NCBI GenBank assembly: GCA_001567245.1
Contig: LMZU01000016.1
Location: 467 to 64,466 of the forward strand
Source: Microgenomates bacterium OLB23
Lineage (GTDB): Bacteria > Patescibacteriota > Microgenomatia > UBA1406 > HO2-37-13b
Reading direction: 5' to 3'
Length of the DNA: 64,000 bases
Positions 36,001 to 42,000 of the stretch are shown piece by piece. Position numbers: made by a program. Position 1 is the first letter of the stretch, and each line of letters opens with the position of its first letter.

Positions 36001-39000
36001 ATCAAAATACCCAACTACAGAAAACGAGGCAAATGTGCGTAGCTCTGGAGCTGTTTCGTGTGTTACTGCAGCACCAACTGCAACACCTGTTCACACCTTA
36101 ACCCCATCACCAACAGCAACTTCTACACCAACACCAACACCGGTGCGTGCAACTACCCCTAACCCCGGCACAGGCACGCCTGTTCCCGATGCAGATGCTG
36201 GTTACTACACAAGCATTTTCGTTTTATAATGGCTCGTCACGCGCGGTTACCAGCATTACCACACTCACCTGCTACGGCGCCTCCAAGTCTGATTGTGTAT
36301 CTGAGTTGGTAAATACGTCTATTCAACCACGACAAAGGGGTACTGTAGAAACAGATCTTGTGCTACCTCGAGGCGTAAATGATTATGTGGTTAAGTGTCG
36401 TGTAACATTTGCTGGCAGTTCAACTCCAGTAAACTGCCCCAATGAGGTAGCAACACCACTGCGACAAAACGTGCTTTATCGTATTTCAGCTTCAGATGGG
36501 GGCATAACAGGACAAGGAGTTACAGAGATTGATGCATGTGATGTAAACAACGATGCGTGCTGTAACGCAAATGATTTTTCTGTTGTTGCAACTAAATATG
36601 CCGAAGAAATTAACCCAACTGAACAAAATGCATCGGACATAAATGGTGATGGCATTATTAATGGTTTTGACCTCGTATTCACGCAGGCCAACTTTGGAAA
36701 AGGTCAAGGGTGTAGACTTAATCTTGCTCCAGAATTGAACCCTGAATTGCGTCGGGAACCGTAGTCTTCAAACTACGTTTTTTAGAAGATGATTTGGTTG
36801 TTTTTGTAGATGCTCCCTTTTTTGTTAATTCTGCCGGCCATGCACCCAACTCTTTAAGCTTCCACATAAAGAGCGCGCCTTTGCGGCGCGCGCCAGAATC
36901 TACAACAAATTGCAATGCCTTGTGCAATACGGGCCTTGGCAATTGCTTTGCCAGGCGTATGTATAGTGCTTTATGGCGTTCGTCCTCTAGTTTTTCGGCA
37001 AGATGAACGCCAAACGACTGATATTCACGCGAAATATAGCGGTCTTTAGTAGGATTAAAGGTCTTGAGCACATCTTTTATTGAGTCCATGCTGACATTAG
37101 TATACAGTATTGCAATGGCCCATAATAATGATATAATGTGAGCATGTTTGCACCATTTATACAGTATTTATTGCAGAGCGGCGTATCGGAGTATGCATTG
37201 ATTGTGCTCCTTTTTTTGCCTATGGTTACCGCGCTCATTACATTCGCGCGCTATGTTATTGGTATCCGCACCATTAACATATATACCACTGTATTGCTTG
37301 CCTATGCCCTGCTCGATTTGGGCTACACGCCTAAAGGCAACATAGATTATGCAGCCACCATTATATATGGAGGTCTTATTATGTTTGCCATTTCTTCAAT
37401 TGGACTATGGATTCATCAGATACTATATGCCTCTCGCCTTCATTACCTTGCAAAAGTTAGTATTGTGTCTTCTTTTGCAGTTATGGGTGTTTTCACACTC
37501 CTATATGGGGCGACATTGGTTAATCAGGTTGATTTGAACATGATCAACCCTATTACCATACTTCTTTTTATTGTCGCGCTAGAGTCGTTGGTAAAAAGCT
37601 CTGTGCGCCATGGCATAAAAAAGGCTGTGTACTTAATGACCCATACTATTGTGCTTGCAATTGGTATTTTCTTTATCATGAGTCAAGAAATTATGCAAAA
37701 TGCCGTATTTGATTACCCCGAAATCTCACTGCTTATGATTGTGCTCAGCTTTATTGCTGGAAAGTGGCGCGGTCTTAAATTACTAGAGTTTATTCGCTTT
37801 AGAAACATTCTTAAACAAGACGTACATGATTCTGAAGATTTTGGCGAATAAGTCGCGTGTTTTTGGGTTTGAATGAACGCAATATATCGTACGTCAAAAA
37901 GTACAATCTTCCCTCTGCTCGAAAAGCTGCAGATAACAAAATTCTCACAAAAAATACTCAAAGAGGTTGAAGTGCCAACCACATTAGTGCTGCATGTTAT
38001 TAAAAATGTTGATCAATTAGCAAGTCTTGACGTTAATACACTGCCAAAAACATTTGTTGTAAAGCCAGGTAGTGGTGTCGCGGGGCAAGGCATTGAGATT
38101 ATATACAACCGCGACAAACAAGGTAATTTTATTAATGCGCAAGGTCATAAAATTTCTCCAGAGGCATTAAAAAATCTTATGGCCAACATTTTAGAGGGTG
38201 CATTCTCTCTAAACTATAGTCCAGATAAGGTGCTTATAGAAGAAAGAGTAAAACCACACCACAAACTGCGCCCCTTTAGCTACAAAGGTGTGCCAGACAT
38301 TCGCGTCATTGTGTTTAAAAAAGTGCCTGTTATGGCAATGGTGCGCTGGCCCACCAAAGATTCGGCGGGGCGCGCAAACTTTTCGCAAGGTGCCGCAGGC
38401 AGTGGAATAGACTTAGCCACCGGCATTACCACCCACACTATAAAACAAACTAGCGAGGGGCGCATTGTTGATCTTGAATTTGTTGATGGTACGCGTACGC
38501 GCTATTCGGGTTTTAAAGTGCCCTATTGGGATAAAATCCTAACATATGCGGTCAAAGCCGCTAAAGCTACCAACCTTGGTTTTTGTGGAGTTGACTTTCT
38601 TATAGATCGTGAACGCGGCCCGTTAATTGTAGAAATCAATGCCCGACCTGGATTACGCATACAACTGGCCAATCAAGATGGCCTTAAATGGAGGCTCGAA
38701 CAAATAAAGAGAGTTCGCATTAAAACTGTTTCGCATGGTATTCGCCTTGGTAAAGACTTGTTTGGCGGTGAAGTTGAAGAAGAAATTGAGGCAATCGCAG
38801 GTAAAAAGATAATTGGTCTTATTCAGCCAGTTAAACTGTATCATAAAACAGAAAAGCGCAGCATAACTATTATGGCAAAAGTTGATACTGGTGCAACCTA
38901 CTCCTCTATTGACCGACAAATTGCAATTGATCTTGGCTATGGCGAAGCCGTTGCTCAATTTGAAAAACTCAATATACCTAAACAAATTCTTACACGCGAA

Positions 39001-42000
39001 GAAGGCATTGCCATTGCAGAAAAATATCATACTCAGCTCACAGAAAACAACCAAGATATTATCAACACTGAAGTTATCGTCAATAGTAACGGAAGAAGTT
39101 ACCGTATTATTCTTGGGCTTCGTGCAAAAATGCAAGAAAAAGAAATTTCTTGCACACGCAACAGTTACAGACCGCAGTAACTTGGTATACCCTATGATTA
39201 TAGGCAAAAAAAGATCTTAAAGAATTTTTAGTAGATCCAAGTAAAAAACCTGCAACAGCATGAGTAAAAATATAGCTATATTTGCTTCGGTAGTTAACGA
39301 AAAAACTAGAGCATCCTTTCCCCGAGGGTTATTTTCATATAACGATGTTGCTATTATTATTGATCAAAAAAGCAAAAACCCTATAAAAATCTTGGTTGGC
39401 ACAAAAGAAATATCTACCTTTGACCTTGTATACTTTAGAACCTGGAGAAAATATGCTCTTATTGCCTTCCCTATGGCTCGCTATCTCAAAATGAAAGGTG
39501 TAAAAATTATTGATACAGAAATTCTTAAAAGTCAGGTTGATTCTAAAACATATGAATATATCTGCGCAGCTGAACACAATGTACCAATTCCACGTTCAAT
39601 TATTGCCTGCAAAGTGAAGCTAGTCACCATGAAGAAAACAATTCACGATACCTTTACGCTGTATCCGCTCATTGTCAAAGCGGCCGAAGGCAAACAGGGT
39701 CGAGATAACTTTTTAGTAAAAAACTTTACAGAACTTAAGAAGGTGCTGAGTAACTACCCTAACGACAAATTGTTTATTGTGCAAGAATATATTCCAAATA
39801 ACTTTGATTACCGCTTTCTTGTAACAGGGTACAAAACTGCTTTGGTTTATAAACGTATTCGCACCAATGAGATATCACATTTAAATAACATTTCACAAGG
39901 TGGGTTACGTGAAATTGTAGATGCGAACAAGCTTAAAAGCCTATGTAAGATTGCTGAGAAAATTAGTAAAGCACTTTATCGTGAAGTTTGTGGCGTTGAC
40001 ATTATTATCAGCACAAAAACAGGTGAGCCCTATGTATTAGAAGCAAACTCAGGACCACAACTCAACTTTAAGCCCGCAACTTAAGGCAGTTAAGAGTTAC
40101 TTAGCAAGGGTATGAAAAGAGTACTCCTACTTTCTTCCGAACCACCTGTTAAGCCAAAAGTTATGTATTTGCTCTCAAGAAATCGTGAAGAGATAGGGTT
40201 ACAATCGCATGCGACCACATATACACATCTTGCAATAGCTCTTGATGCAGAAAACAAATCATCTGAAATATTCGTTGACGACAGGCCTTTTGATATGAGT
40301 GGCGTGTACTTTCGTGCATGGGCAAACTATGCTGCCATGTCGAGTGCGCTAGCTGTCTTACTTAAAAACAAGAAAGTTCCTTTCACAAACTCAGATGTGG
40401 GCACATCTGGATCAGACAGTAAATCATACGATTACTGCAAGCTCTTTAACCATATACGACTTCCCCATACTATCATTGCTTACCCAGAGTGGCTTATTAT
40501 TAATGCCGCTATGCTTGAGAATAGATTTCAGTATCCATATATCCTAAAGGCTTCTGATGGGAGGCAAGGTTATGACAACTATCTTATAAAGTGTAAGGCT
40601 GAACTTACAAAAAGTCTCAAAGGATATAAGAAGAATGCCCTATTCATTGTTCAGGAGTTCATCCCAAATTCTTTTGACTATCGCATTATTATTGTTGGTG
40701 GTAAAGCCATGCAAGCATACACAAGGACGAGAGATCCGAAATCTTCATCTCATGTAAATAATGCTTCACAAGGTGCTTCAAAAACTGTGGTTAATCTTAC
40801 AGATATTCCAAAGCTATGTAGGCTTGCAGAGAAAGCTGCAAAAACACTGAAACGAGAGATTTGTGGCGTAGATATAATAGTAAGTTCAGAAAGTAAAAAA
40901 GCCTACCTTGTTGAGGTTAATTCTTCGCCCAGTCTTCCCTATGACACTACAGTCAGACTAATCCAGTCGTACTTAACATCGACTCTAAAATAAGCTTATT
41001 TTTCTTATCGGGGCCATTACCTGCAAACCCAGGAACCTCAAGAATTAAAGGGATATGGGCAAGACGCTGGTCAGAAAGAAATGTTTTTATTCCTTCAAGG
41101 CCAATTTCGCCTTCTCCAATGTTTTCATGACGATCGTGCTGCGATCCACATGGTGTTTTTGAATCGTTCACATGAATACAAGCTATTTTATCTATACCAA
41201 TGAGTCGCTCTACATCATCTAGCCAGCTTGTTGCCACTTCACTATTGCAAATATCAACGCCAGAAGCAAAAAGATGTTGGGTATCAATACAAAACTGTAT
41301 GCGGTCAGACTGAACTTTTTCAAGAATTTCTACGCATTGCTCAATTTTAAAGACAATTCGTTTTTCTGATGCCATGTTTTCTACAAGAATTTTCTGTGAC
41401 GTAGGAGTATCTGAAAGTATATGACTAAGACTATCACATATTTTTTCTATGCTTCCGCTGCCAATATGCACGATCGTTCCACTACTACCTAATATTGCTC
41501 CTACTTGAAGATAGTTTTTGAGCGAATTTACCGAGAGTACATCCAAATTTTCATTTTCACTACCCAAATTGACCAAATATATGGCATGAAAGAAGAGTGC
41601 CTTCATTTGTGCGTTGGTATAGGCAGTCAAGAATTTTTGTATGTCCTCTTCGGTGTAGTTATTTGGTTTGAATGTGCGCGGTGATGAAACAAAAATTTGC
41701 AGGGCATTAAAATCCTCTGCCACCGCGCGCTCTACAGATTTGTGAAGACCGCCTGCAATAGATACGTGTCCACCAATAATGCTCATGTGTGCTTTGCCTT
41801 TGTTACAGCAATTACTTAAGCTGGTTTTTTATTTCTTCTGCAATATCAACAAAAATACGCTCGTATAATACCTCCAATTCTTCCTTGGTAAAATTCTGAA
41901 GCACATATGATTCACCGCTTACCCTGTTTTGTTGATCTCGCCCATCAACACCAATGCGCACGCGCATAAAGCCTATATCTTTTATGTGTTGCTCAATAGA

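What the first reader, a model, noticed from the sequence alone, without database searches (positions are those of the whole stretch)
37110..40993. 7TM protein + three ATP-grasp ligases, one fused to a retropepsin-like peptidase: a peptide-tagging/tailing cassette
The cluster has four genes. They are a 7TM protein (37144), an alpha-L-glutamate-ligase-like ATP-grasp fused to a DTGA aspartic-peptidase domain (37857..39263, AKVDTGATYSSI ... DRSNLVYPMIIGKKDLKEFLVDP), and two RimK-like ATP-grasps (39260, 40112). Related gene neighbourhoods (7TM-transglutaminase, ATP-grasp, RimK, RimB-like protease) were predicted computationally to make or trim amino-acid tails, but remain functionally uncharacterised. 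This version lacks the transglutaminase domain and has three ligases. It sits directly after the surface-protein array.
Basis: partly seen in the sequence, partly recalled or inferred. Interest (0 to 1): 0.65.

Follow-up and report, generated by a model that had tools for sequence, protein, structure and literature searches.

The report
Membrane-linked glutamate-tail ligase-peptidase cassette
A tiny-genome (Patescibacteria) bacterium carries a stripped-down, fused version of the Rlo/Rim systems that add and trim glutamate tails; the gene set is real and widespread in that group, but what it modifies is unknown.

Summary
The window sequence is damaged. The fusion gene really starts at 37826 and needs four frame corrections. 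The first RimK-like gene needs one. Contigs assembled from public runs contradict the two breaks they cover, so these are probably sequence errors, not pseudogenes. Intact orthologues at 84-86% identity exist.

In 80 loci fetched from GTDB representative genomes (85 loci held; 81 analysed after dropping four duplicates), nearly all labelled or placed as Patescibacteria, the conserved core is the 7TM gene followed directly by the fusion gene. This holds in 78 of 78 loci that have upstream DNA, and the genes usually overlap. RimK-like genes are accessory, 0-3 per locus. Flanking genes differ by lineage, so the surface-protein array is not a general partner.

The closest characterised systems are RloABC of Pseudomonas aeruginosa (2025) and RimK/RimB. 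This version lacks the transglutaminase-like domain. Its peptidase is not secreted but fused behind a RloC-type ligase, the opposite order to the known RimBK hybrid. The catalytic Asp and the poly-glutamate-binding Lys/Arg residues are invariant.

Most likely function: synthesis and trimming of poly-alpha-glutamate tails or peptides at the membrane's cytoplasmic face. This is a new variant of a known kind, of moderate interest.

The parts
37110..37137 (+). Promoter-like site, TTGCAA-16 nt-TATAAT with a TG extension. It abuts the start of g1, so the mRNA is probably leaderless or nearly so.
   Evidence: This is the best-scoring site in 36600-41900, with 10 of 12 matches. The total number of sites in that region is not above chance. 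TGATATAAT is invariant in the window and five relatives down to about 60% protein identity. Function as a promoter is inferred.
37138..37851 (+). g1: a 7TM membrane protein of the RloB type without the transglutaminase-like domain (237 aa from GTG 37138; more likely 235 aa from ATG 37144).
   Evidence: PF14402, 2.1e-14. It matches only positions 313-507 of the 508-position NCBIfam RloB model. The AF2 model has pLDDT 87 and pTM 0.83, with seven long helices. No PDB fold match: best E = 0.5. Topology is N-out/C-in by the positive-inside rule, and the conserved charged residues lie on the cytoplasmic side.
37826..39263 (+). g2: a RloC-type ATP-grasp ligase fused to a C-terminal retropepsin-like (RimB/RloA-type) peptidase. 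About 478 aa once four frame breaks are read through (T-run 37860-37864, A-run 37949-37954, A-runs 39137-39145, A-run 39206-39212).
   Evidence: tblastn with the intact 479-aa orthologue covers the gene across three frames. Orthologues of 470-480 aa are common in Patescibacteria. A public-run contig lacks one base at 39206.
37880..38712 (+). ATP-grasp ligase domain of g2 (about residues 19-296).
   Evidence: PF14397, 201 bits; TIGR02291, 247 bits, below its 314-bit equivalog cutoff. The AF2 model of orthologue P0001 has pLDDT 89. The best PDB folds are RimK 5zct (E = 1.9e-11), ArgX/LysX and cyanophycin synthetase. The D257...E270-x-N272 metal/ATP motif is conserved: D257 and E270 are invariant and N272 is at least 90% conserved.
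38713..38799 (+). Conserved linker between the two domains of g2, IRLGKDLFGGE(I/V)EEEIEAIAGK.
   Evidence: G314 and G315 are invariant and K310, D311, F313, E316, E318, E319 are nearly invariant in 116 sequences. The AF2 model is less confident here, pLDDT about 66. Its role is unknown.
38800..39260 (+). Retropepsin-like peptidase domain of g2 (about residues 326-477). The catalytic Asp354 codon is at 38884-38886, within AKVDTGA.
   Evidence: The family profile hits the RloA crystal structures 9g58 and 9g59 (1e-7, 6e-7) and 2pma. PF05618 and the RloA1/2/3 models hit after frame correction. K352, D354, G356, A357, R427 and R450 are invariant in 116 sequences. The domain has no cysteine, read directly from the sequence. 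A helical insert of about 45 aa follows the DTGA strand.
39260..40115 (+). g3: RimK-like ATP-grasp ligase 1, 284 aa after one frame correction at AA 40078-40079. Its start overlaps the g2 stop (ATGA) and its stop overlaps the g4 start (ATGA).
   Evidence: PF08443, 6.2e-18. Best PDB sequence is RimK 5zct. Contigs from X4, X7 and X2 (X2 is from the same sample as the best holder of the window) lack one base at 40078. It is the orthologue of the single RimK-like gene of L001 and L007, at 45-56% identity.
40112..40993 (+). g4: RimK-like ATP-grasp ligase 2 (293 aa, intact). Its 3' end overlaps the convergent endonuclease IV gene by 41 nt.
   Evidence: PF08443, 3.6e-18. Best PDB sequence is RimK. 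It is 37% identical to g3 and 45% identical to the second RimK-like gene of L006.
36718..37089 (-). Small divergently transcribed gene (123 aa, no family). It neighbours the cassette throughout the Roizmanbacteria-like lineage. Whether it belongs to the system is uncertain.
   Evidence: No hit in Pfam, NCBIfam or PADLOC. It lies next to the 7TM gene in 11 distinct loci of that lineage, on either strand. The N-terminal domain of about 85 aa is conserved and the C-terminal tail is variable or absent.

Best explanation
This is an operon from a Patescibacteria (Microgenomates, Roizmanbacteria-like) bacterium. It encodes a compact relative of the Rlo and Rim systems, which add and trim glutamate tails.

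The invariant core has two parts. The first is a 7TM membrane protein homologous to the membrane half of RloB. The second is a cytoplasmic enzyme in which a RloC-type ATP-grasp ligase is fused to a RimB/RloA-type retropepsin-like peptidase.

The proposed mechanism is as follows.

1. The ligase domain uses ATP to add alpha-linked L-glutamate (or a similar acidic residue) to a carboxylate of a protein or peptide, or to make free poly-alpha-glutamate.
2. The fused peptidase, working as a dimer, cuts poly-glutamate stretches. This limits tail length or releases product, as RimB does for RimK.
3. The enzyme works docked on the conserved, positively charged cytoplasmic face and C-terminal helix of the 7TM protein. 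That protein receives, senses or passes on the product.
4. The two RimK-like ligases are lineage-variable accessories that prime or extend tails.

Shown: the homology, the architecture, the conservation of the catalytic and substrate-binding residues, and the strict gene pairing. Inferred: the substrate amino acid, the acceptor, the docking, and any export.
For: **Family assignments**
- g1: PF14402. g2: PF14397, TIGR02291, PF05618 and the RloA models. g3 and g4: PF08443.
- For the fusion, modelled as its 86%-identical orthologue P0001, the best PDB folds are RimK, ArgX/LysX and cyanophycin synthetase.
- The peptidase profile hits the RloA crystal structures 9g58 and 9g59.

**Active-site and substrate-binding residues**
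- K352-x-D354-T-G-A, R427 and R450 are invariant in 116 homologues.
- By the alignment, and by the identical 23-residue spacing between the two arginines, these correspond to RloA K46, D48, R114 and R137.
- In RloA those are the catalytic Asp and the poly-Glu contacts whose mutation abolishes activity (PMC12239564, section 8).

**Gene pairing**
- The 7TM gene lies directly upstream on the same strand in 78 of 78 loci that have upstream DNA. These loci span Microgenomates, Dojkabacteria and Parcubacteria-type MAGs.
- The median gap is -4 nt, and 73 of 78 gaps are at most 20 nt.
- The flanking genes change between lineages.

**7TM protein**
- Its conserved charged residues (R38, R100, H102, Y103, K106, R157, E217, R220) and the motif G(K/R)WxGLRLxEYxRF(R/K) all lie on the predicted cytoplasmic side.

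**Precedent from experiment**
- Deleting rloB or rloC suppresses the triple rloA mutant, and RloA cuts runs of at least 8 Glu (PMC12239564).
- RimB trims poly-Glu and stimulates poly-alpha-Glu synthesis by RimK, and a natural RimB-RimK hybrid is proteolytically active (PMC11957791).
Against: - No biochemical data exist for any member of this fused family.
- The ligase scores below the TIGR02291 equivalog cutoff (247 against 314 bits), and g3 and g4 score below the TIGR00768 cutoff. Substrate specificity could therefore differ from Glu.
- The peptidase domain carries a helical insert of about 45 aa that RloA and RimB lack, and it scores only marginally on PF05618.
- No acceptor was found. The 7TM C-terminal tail is not conserved as acidic, and the small neighbouring protein's tail is not conserved.
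- In Pseudomonas the peptidase acts in the periplasm, whereas here it must be cytoplasmic. The logic of the pathway may therefore differ.
- The window copy itself is frame-broken, and three of the five breaks could not be checked against public-run contigs.
Confidence: 0.6

Rival explanations
1. The cassette is a polymer or peptide export pathway for the cell envelope. The ligases build a free poly-amino-acid or a short non-ribosomal peptide of lineage-specific composition. They are the fusion, 0-3 RimK-like enzymes and, in some genomes, a Mur-ligase-like enzyme. The peptidase releases or sizes the product. The 7TM protein moves it to the cell surface or wall.
For: - The number and sequence of accessory ligases vary strongly. 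RimK-like genes number 0-3, and they are only 45-56% identical between genomes whose fusions are about 85% identical.
- Some loci add a Mur-ligase-like gene, a DUF3541 gene or a GT2 gene.
- In different lineages the neighbours include MreB, PEGA and class A PBP genes, or dockerin/cohesin surface proteins.
- In Pseudomonas the RloBC product must reach the periplasm, where RloA acts (PMC12239564).
- Cyanophycin synthetase is among the best fold matches.
Against: - The 7TM model matches no known transporter or flippase fold.
- The peptidase is on the cytoplasmic side.
- The envelope-gene neighbours are lineage-specific and could reflect inherited gene order only.
- 20 of 58 loci with at least 4.5 kb of downstream DNA have no accessory ligase within it.
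Confidence: 0.2
2. The genes are a ribosome-modification module like RimK/RimB. The ligases glutamylate ribosomal protein S6 or another ribosomal protein, and the peptidase trims the tail. The 7TM gene is an unrelated neighbour.
For: - The best PDB relatives of g3 and g4 are RimK.
- The peptidase is cytoplasmic and lacks cysteines, like RimB (sequence; PMC12239564).
- In about 30 Dojkabacteria-type loci the cassette directly follows nusG-rplK-rplA-rplJ-rplL on the same strand.
Against: - The 7TM pairing holds in 78 of 78 loci with overlapping or abutting genes, which is not what an unrelated neighbour would show.
- The fused ligase is of the RloC type (PF14397/TIGR02291), not the RimK type.
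- RimK-like genes are absent from many loci.
- The ribosomal-operon context is confined to one lineage.
- The S6 C-terminus of these organisms was not examined.
Confidence: 0.12
3. In this genome the cassette is a decaying pseudogene cluster. The five frame breaks in g2 and g3 are real.
For: - Five frame breaks fall in 2.3 kb of g2 and g3, whereas g1, g4, endonuclease IV, Pth and the small gene are intact.
- Three of the breaks are not covered by any public-run contig.
Against: - Both breaks that contigs do cover are contradicted, one of them by a run from the same sample as the best holder of the window.
- Contigs of that sample differ from the window and from each other by indels at other places.
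- Four more breaks lie in the upstream surface-protein genes.
- Outside the break points the protein is 84-86% identical to intact orthologues, and all catalytic residues are kept.
Confidence: 0.05
4. The ATP-grasps are ordinary metabolic enzymes (D-Ala-D-Ala ligase, glutathione synthetase, carboxylase), and the 7TM protein is an unrelated transporter.
For: There are weak sub-threshold hits to Ddl, GshB and CPS-like models and to Ddl structures lower in the fold list.
Against: - All such hits are far below their cutoffs and cover only the shared C-terminal ATP-grasp core.
- The top matches are RimK, alpha-L-Glu-ligase-like, LysX and cyanophycin synthetase.
- The 7TM protein belongs to PF14402 and has no transporter fold match.
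Confidence: 0.03

Closest known systems
RloABC operon of Pseudomonas aeruginosa (Lormand et al. 2025, mBio, PMC12239564)
   Same: - It has the same three protein families: a PF14402 7TM membrane protein (RloB), a PF14397/TIGR02291 ATP-grasp (RloC) and a PF05618 retropepsin-like peptidase (RloA).
- The catalytic DTGA motif and the poly-Glu-contacting Lys/Arg residues are conserved.
- The genes are co-operonic.
   Different: - The 7TM protein lacks the periplasmic inactive transglutaminase-like domain (237 aa against about 508).
- The peptidase has no signal peptide and no disulfide cysteines. It is fused to the C-terminus of the cytoplasmic ligase, so it cannot act outside the membrane.
- It carries a helical insert of about 45 aa.
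- One to three extra RimK-like ligases are often present.
- The host is Patescibacteria, whereas RloB hits were reported to be 96% Proteobacteria.
RimK/RimB (and RimA) ribosomal protein S6 poly-glutamylation module of Pseudomonas and E. coli (PMC11957791, PMC7343187)
   Same: - A cytoplasmic ATP-grasp alpha-L-glutamate ligase is paired with a cytoplasmic retropepsin-like peptidase that trims poly-Glu.
- The best solved relatives of g3 and g4 are RimK.
- The peptidase lacks cysteines, like RimB.
   Different: - The ligase attached to the peptidase is of the RloC type, not the RimK type.
- There is an obligatory 7TM partner.
- There is no evidence that S6 is the acceptor.
- g3 and g4 score below the RimK-family trusted cutoff.
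RimBK hybrid protein (Desulfotalea psychrophila DP2392; Flavobacteriales, Rhodobacterales; PMC11957791)
   Same: It is a natural single-chain fusion of a retropepsin-like peptidase and an ATP-grasp ligase. The peptidase domain of RimBK was shown to cut poly-glutamylated RpsF.
   Different: - The domain order is reversed: RimB is N-terminal in RimBK and C-terminal here.
- The ligase subfamily differs (RimK against RloC-like).
- No 7TM partner is described for RimBK.
- The taxa differ.
- This points to an independent fusion event.
Computationally predicted 7TM-transglutaminase / ATP-grasp / RimK / peptidase neighbourhoods (Pfam PF14402 and PF14397 descriptions; the reference I recall for them is Iyer et al. 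2009, cited from memory)
   Same: It has the same domain families and the same prediction of peptide ligation coupled to a membrane protein.
   Different: The paper could not be retrieved here. I therefore cannot say whether it already noted the transglutaminase-less, ligase-peptidase-fused form.

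Membership tests
Rlo system (RloA/RloB/RloC) | RloC: a cytoplasmic ATP-grasp of the alpha-L-glutamate-ligase-like family (PF14397 / TIGR02291). | tested here: met
   PF14397, 201 bits against a cutoff of 31. TIGR02291, E = 2.4e-73 but 247 bits, below the 314-bit equivalog cutoff. It is a family member, not an equivalog.
Rlo system (RloA/RloB/RloC) | RloB: the 7TM domain (PF14402). 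| tested here: met
   PF14402, 54 bits against a cutoff of 25. It aligns with positions 313-507 of the RloB model.
Rlo system (RloA/RloB/RloC) | RloB: an N-terminal periplasmic inactive transglutaminase-like domain. | tested here: not met
   The protein is 237 aa, and nothing matches RloB model positions 1-312. All 36 homologues found are 213-318 aa with PF14402 only.
Rlo system (RloA/RloB/RloC) | RloA: a separate, secreted retropepsin-like peptidase with a signal peptide and a conserved disulfide. | tested here: not met
   The peptidase is the C-terminal domain of the cytoplasmic ligase in the window and in 116 homologues. The domain has no cysteine (read from the sequence).
Rlo system (RloA/RloB/RloC) | The catalytic D-T-G-A motif and the basic residues that contact poly-Glu (RloA K46, R114, R137). 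| tested here: met
   K352, D354, G356, A357, R427 and R450 are invariant. Correspondence rests on the alignment to 9g59 and the equal 23-residue R-R spacing. No structural superposition was done.
Rlo system (RloA/RloB/RloC) | Role in hypo-osmotic tolerance and envelope integrity; rloB/rloC epistatic to rloA. | not testable with these tools
   This needs genetics, and the organisms are uncultured.
RimK/RimB module | A RimK-family alpha-L-glutamate ligase (TIGR00768 / PF08443). | tested here: inconclusive
   g3 and g4 pass PF08443 (65 and 66 bits against a cutoff of 21). They score 89 and 83 bits on TIGR00768, against a cutoff of 143. Their best PDB sequences are RimK.
RimK/RimB module | The acceptor is ribosomal protein S6 with a C-terminal Glu. 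| not tested
   rpsF of this organism or of its relatives was not retrieved.
RimK/RimB module | A cytoplasmic retropepsin-like peptidase (PF05618) that trims poly-Glu. | tested here: met
   This covers domain presence and cytoplasmic location only. PF05618 scores 30.8 bits against a cutoff of 27 after frame correction. The domain is fused to a cytoplasmic enzyme and has no cysteine. Activity was not tested.
RimBK hybrid | The RimB domain lies at the N-terminus of a RimK-type ligase. | tested here: not met
   Here the order is ligase then peptidase, and the ligase is of the PF14397/TIGR02291 type. RimBK is described in PMC11957791, section 5.
Anti-phage defence systems (PADLOC) | Any component matches a known defence protein model. 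| tested here: not met
   No hits for g1-g4 or the small neighbouring gene.

The most novel reading that the evidence does not exclude
The 7TM protein plus the ligase-peptidase fusion, with its changing set of RimK-like, Mur-ligase-like and DUF3541 partners, could be a previously unrecognised envelope pathway of Patescibacteria. In this reading it assembles a lineage-specific acidic peptide or polymer at the membrane and delivers it to the cell surface. There it could shape the wall charge, the osmotic behaviour or the attachment of these episymbiotic cells. The 7TM protein would then be a new kind of polyanion translocator with no solved structural relative.
Probability: 0.15. Interest if true: 0.8.

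Novelty: new variant of a known kind. Interest (0 to 1): 0.5.

Why it matters
Patescibacteria have genomes of about 1 Mb and keep few non-essential genes. Yet this two-gene core is held together across several of their classes while everything around it changes. That argues for a selected, shared function.

The core is also the simplest natural form of the Rlo system, whose biochemistry in Pseudomonas is still unsolved. RloA cuts poly-Glu, but the product of RloB and RloC is unknown. This form has no transglutaminase-like domain, and its writer and eraser sit in one polypeptide next to the membrane partner. That makes it a convenient minimal system for three tasks:

- finding out what the RloC-type ligase makes;
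- finding out what the 7TM domain does;
- testing the idea that fused peptidases tune or release poly-glutamate products.

It also extends the known range of bacterial retropepsin-like peptidases and of the RloB-type 7TM protein well beyond Proteobacteria.

Tried and rejected
1. **7TM C-terminal tail as the Glu acceptor.** The window and its close relatives end in ...E. Across 78 distinct sequences, however, the last residue is K, Q, E, D, S, N and others, with no conserved acidic end. Rejected as a general feature.

2. **Small divergent protein as a LysW-like carrier with an acidic C-terminus (...ILEQD).** The tail is missing or different in most orthologues, and only the N-terminal domain of about 85 aa is conserved. 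Rejected.

3. **Conserved linker ...GGEIEEEIE... as a self-cleavage site.** It has at most three consecutive Glu. RloA needs at least 8 and RimB at least 5 (PMC12239564, PMC11957791). Considered unlikely; not tested.

4. **Fold relatives of the 7TM protein.** Nothing significant in the PDB: best E = 0.5, TM-score below 0.4.

5. **Defence-system membership.** No PADLOC hits.

6. **Functional link to the cohesin/dockerin/VWA surface array.** The adjacency is conserved only in the Roizmanbacteria-like lineage. Not supported as general.

7. **Public-run contig check of the three remaining frame breaks.** Contigs of the source sample stop at or before those sites and no other run covers them. Unresolved.

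8. **The 2009 computational paper on these neighbourhoods.** It could not be retrieved.

9. **Family size, using the peptidase-domain fragment.** Only 52 clusters at 50% identity were found. They are mostly at positions of about 310-440 in proteins of about 470 aa, plus fragments. This adds little beyond confirming that the inserted peptidase type is mostly found fused.

Full report
**1. What is in the sequence**

Region 37110-40993 holds four tightly packed + strand genes.

- **g1** (37138/37144-37851) is a 237-aa protein that matches PF14402, '7TM usually fused to an inactive transglutaminase', at 2e-14. It aligns only to the C-terminal 7TM part (positions 313-507 of 508) of NCBIfam's model of RloB, the 'osmotic stress tolerance membrane protein'.
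- **g3** (from 39260) and **g4** (40112-40993) both match the RimK ATP-grasp domain PF08443, at about 1e-18. RimK is their best solved relative.
- **g2**, as it stands in the window, is a 435-aa ORF (37873-39180) with a strong PF14397 match and no peptidase domain.

Translating all three frames, and running tblastn with an intact 479-aa orthologue, shows that the real g2 runs from ATG 37826 to the stop at 39261-39263. Four one-base excesses in homopolymer runs break it. They lie at 37860-37864, 37949-37954, 39137-45 and 39206-39212.

Read through these breaks, the protein is about 478 aa. It then also matches PF05618 (30.8 bits against a cutoff of 27) and the RloA retropepsin models.

g3 has one more break, at 40078-40079. 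Once corrected, g3 ends in an ATGA overlap with g4.

The start of g2 overlaps the end of g1 by 26 nt, and the g2 stop overlaps the g3 start. The four genes therefore form one translationally coupled unit.

**2. Are the frame breaks real?**

Contigs assembled from public runs speak against it.

- A contig from a related sludge strain lacks one base at 39206.
- Contigs from two related strains, and from a run of the same sample as the best holder of the window, lack one base at 40078.
- Contigs from that sample differ from the window, and from each other, by further single-base indels, at about 4 per kb and depth 2-3.
- Those contigs stop at or before the other three break sites, so those sites remain unchecked.
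- The upstream surface-protein genes carry four more frame breaks relative to an 85%-identical relative.
- Orthologues at 84-86% identity are intact.

I conclude that the breaks are most likely sequencing or assembly errors. I put a pseudogene reading at about 5%.

**3. Relatives and gene neighbourhood**

A search with the corrected fusion found thousands of homologues. The best 120 are nearly all 470-490 aa with the same two-domain layout. They come from Roizmanbacteria, Woesebacteria, Dojkabacteria/WS6 and other Patescibacteria.

I fetched 80 loci from GTDB representative genomes, called their ORFs and classified them with profiles built from the window proteins. With five loci fetched earlier, 85 are held; 81 distinct loci were analysed after dropping four duplicates.

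- **The 7TM gene** lies directly upstream of the fusion, on the same strand, in 78 of 78 loci that contain upstream DNA. The median gap is -4 nt, and 73 of 78 gaps are at most 20 nt.
- **RimK-like genes** are accessory. Among 58 loci with at least 4.5 kb of downstream DNA, 20 have none, 15 have one, 13 have two and 10 have three.
- **The window's two-RimK state** is shared with one close relative (L006). Two others (L001, L007) have a single gene.
- **These accessory ligases diverge fast.** They are 45-56% identical between genomes whose fusion proteins are about 85% identical, and g3 is only 37% identical to g4.

Flanking genes change with lineage:

| Lineage | Upstream | Downstream |
|---|---|---|
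| Window's Roizmanbacteria-like group | VWA/dockerin and cohesin genes, then a small divergent gene | Pth |
| Dojkabacteria | nusG-rplK-rplA-rplJ-rplL | MreB and a PEGA protein |
| Moranbacteria-type | RuvC | class A PBP |
| Paceibacteria-type | SufBD | not annotated (families without Pfam names) |

A few loci add DUF3541, Mur-ligase-like or GT2 genes. The unit that selection keeps together is therefore 7TM plus fusion. The surface-protein array is a lineage-specific neighbour.

**4. Anatomy of the proteins**

*The fusion.* An AlphaFold2 model of the 86%-identical orthologue P0001, built with a 116-sequence alignment, is confident: pLDDT 89.

- Its ATP-grasp part is most similar to RimK (5zct, E = 1.9e-11), ArgX/LysX and cyanophycin synthetase. 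All of these ligate amino acids to peptide or protein carboxylates.
- The Mg/ATP motif D257...E270-x-N272 is conserved: D257 and E270 are invariant and N272 is at least 90% conserved. The corresponding motifs are visible in g3 and g4.
- A conserved linker, GKDLFGGE(I/V)EEEIE, joins the ligase to the peptidase domain.

*The peptidase domain.* Its family profile hits the two RloA crystal structures (9g58, 9g59) and 2pma.

- K352-x-D354-T-G-A, R427 and R450 are invariant in 116 sequences.
- By alignment, and by the same 23-residue spacing between the arginines, they correspond to RloA K46, D48, R114 and R137.
- In RloA these are the catalytic Asp and the basic residues that hold poly-glutamate. 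Mutating them abolishes activity (PMC12239564).
- The domain has no cysteine, like cytoplasmic RimB and unlike periplasmic RloA.
- It carries a helical insert of about 45 aa after the DTGA strand.

*The 7TM protein.* It models confidently, with pLDDT 87 and pTM 0.83, but has no significant structural relative in the PDB. The positive-inside rule puts the N-terminus outside and the C-terminus inside. The conserved charged residues and the conserved C-terminal helix G(K/R)WxGLRLxEYxRF(R/K) all fall on the cytoplasmic side. That is where the fusion enzyme must be.

**5. Upstream signals**

The best promoter-like site of the region is TTGCAA-16-TATAAT with a TG extension, at 37110-37137, directly abutting the start of g1. 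TGATATAAT is invariant in five relatives.

This suggests a leaderless or near-leaderless transcript starting near ATG 37144. That is an inference.

**6. How it most likely works**

The closest characterised systems are RloABC and RimK/RimB.

- In P. aeruginosa, loss of the three secreted RloA peptidases is lethal at low osmolarity. Deleting rloB (7TM-transglutaminase) or rloC (ATP-grasp) suppresses this. RloA cuts runs of at least 8 Glu (PMC12239564).
- RimB trims poly-Glu tails from S6 and stimulates poly-alpha-Glu synthesis by RimK. A natural RimB-RimK hybrid is proteolytically active (PMC11957791).

By homology, I propose that the fusion is a single-chain writer/eraser of poly-alpha-glutamate (or of a similar acidic tail or peptide). 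It would work at the cytoplasmic face of its 7TM partner, with the RimK-like enzymes as variable helpers.

| Status | Statements |
|---|---|
| Shown here | Family membership; conservation of the catalytic and substrate-binding residues; cytoplasmic placement of the peptidase; the strict 7TM-fusion pairing |
| Inferred | Glu as the substrate; the acceptor; docking on the 7TM protein; any export |

Confidence is about 0.6. The main rival, at about 0.2, is an envelope polymer or peptide export pathway. Ribosomal modification unrelated to the 7TM protein stands at about 0.12.

**7. Comparison and novelty**

It works like Rlo/Rim but does not meet all the defining features of any named system.

- It has no transglutaminase-like domain in the RloB-type protein.
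- It has no secreted RloA.
- Its domain order is the reverse of RimBK, and its ligase belongs to a different subfamily.
- The ligases score below the equivalog cutoffs.

Literature searches found no description of this Patescibacteria form. The 2009 computational survey could not be read. Database names for members are generic: 'ATP-dependent zinc protease', 'sugar-transfer associated ATP-grasp', 'hypothetical'.

I rate it a new variant of a known kind, with interest about 0.5. It is not a surprise in kind. It is a clean, minimal and widely conserved form that could make the unsolved Rlo biochemistry directly testable.

Noticed in passing
window 30400-40100: At least nine single-base frame breaks fall in + strand genes: near 31870, 34205, 34860, 36215, 37860, 37949, 39140, 39206 and 40078. 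For the five within g2 and g3 the sites were inspected and lie at short A or T runs. Neighbouring genes (g1, g4, endonuclease IV, Pth, the GDSL-like gene) are intact. Low-depth, indel-prone source data is the likely cause, and the clustering may reflect uneven coverage.
   Followed up: partly
window 36718-37089 (-): A small gene (123 aa) with no hit in Pfam, NCBIfam or PADLOC. Its N-terminal domain of about 85 aa is strongly conserved (…FNPTxDKYISREYQSFGVHLAEKL…ALFMWKLKELG) and its basic tail is variable. It stays next to the 7TM gene in all Roizmanbacteria-like loci, on either strand. It may be a regulator.
   Followed up: partly
window 37110-37144: An extended -10 box, TGATATAAT, directly abuts the start codon of the 7TM gene and is invariant in five relatives. 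This suggests a leaderless mRNA.
   Followed up: partly
window 21715-36764 (+): A long array of surface-protein genes: VWA plus dockerin proteins, a cohesin-domain protein (34156-34641), and several large ORFs without family hits. The same order (dockerin proteins, cohesin, dockerin protein) is kept in relatives down to about 60% identity.
   Followed up: partly
L016-L058 (for example L016:3137-8437): In Dojkabacteria-type genomes the 7TM-fusion pair sits directly after nusG-rplK-rplA-rplJ-rplL on the same strand and is followed by MreB and a PEGA-domain gene. In Moranbacteria-type genomes a class A penicillin-binding protein gene follows it. Whether this reflects function or only inherited gene order is open.
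   Followed up: no
L016:9419-10375, L056:9651-10913, L042:10117-10971: Some cassettes carry extra genes among the RimK-like ligases: DUF3541 (5 loci), a Mur-ligase-middle-domain protein (4 loci) and a family 2 glycosyltransferase. There is also a protein of about 609 aa with no family (f21, 9 loci).
   Followed up: no
window 39260-40993 and loci L001, L006, L007: The accessory RimK-like ligases evolve much faster than the core. They are 45-56% identical between genomes whose fusion proteins are about 85% identical, while the 7TM proteins are about 65% identical.
   Followed up: partly
window 40953-42461: The 3' ends of g4 and of the convergent endonuclease IV gene (40953-41786, -) overlap by 41 nt. 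Peptidyl-tRNA hydrolase (41812-42345, -) and a tRNA (42381-42461, +) follow.
   Followed up: no
L006, L007, L015 record titles: The closest relatives (85-87% identical fusion) are deposited as 'uncultured Gammaproteobacteria bacterium' MAGs. Their gene content and next-nearest relatives (Roizmanbacteria, Woesebacteria) indicate Patescibacteria. Many Dojkabacteria-like loci are labelled 'Saccharibacteria'. These taxon labels look unreliable.
   Followed up: no
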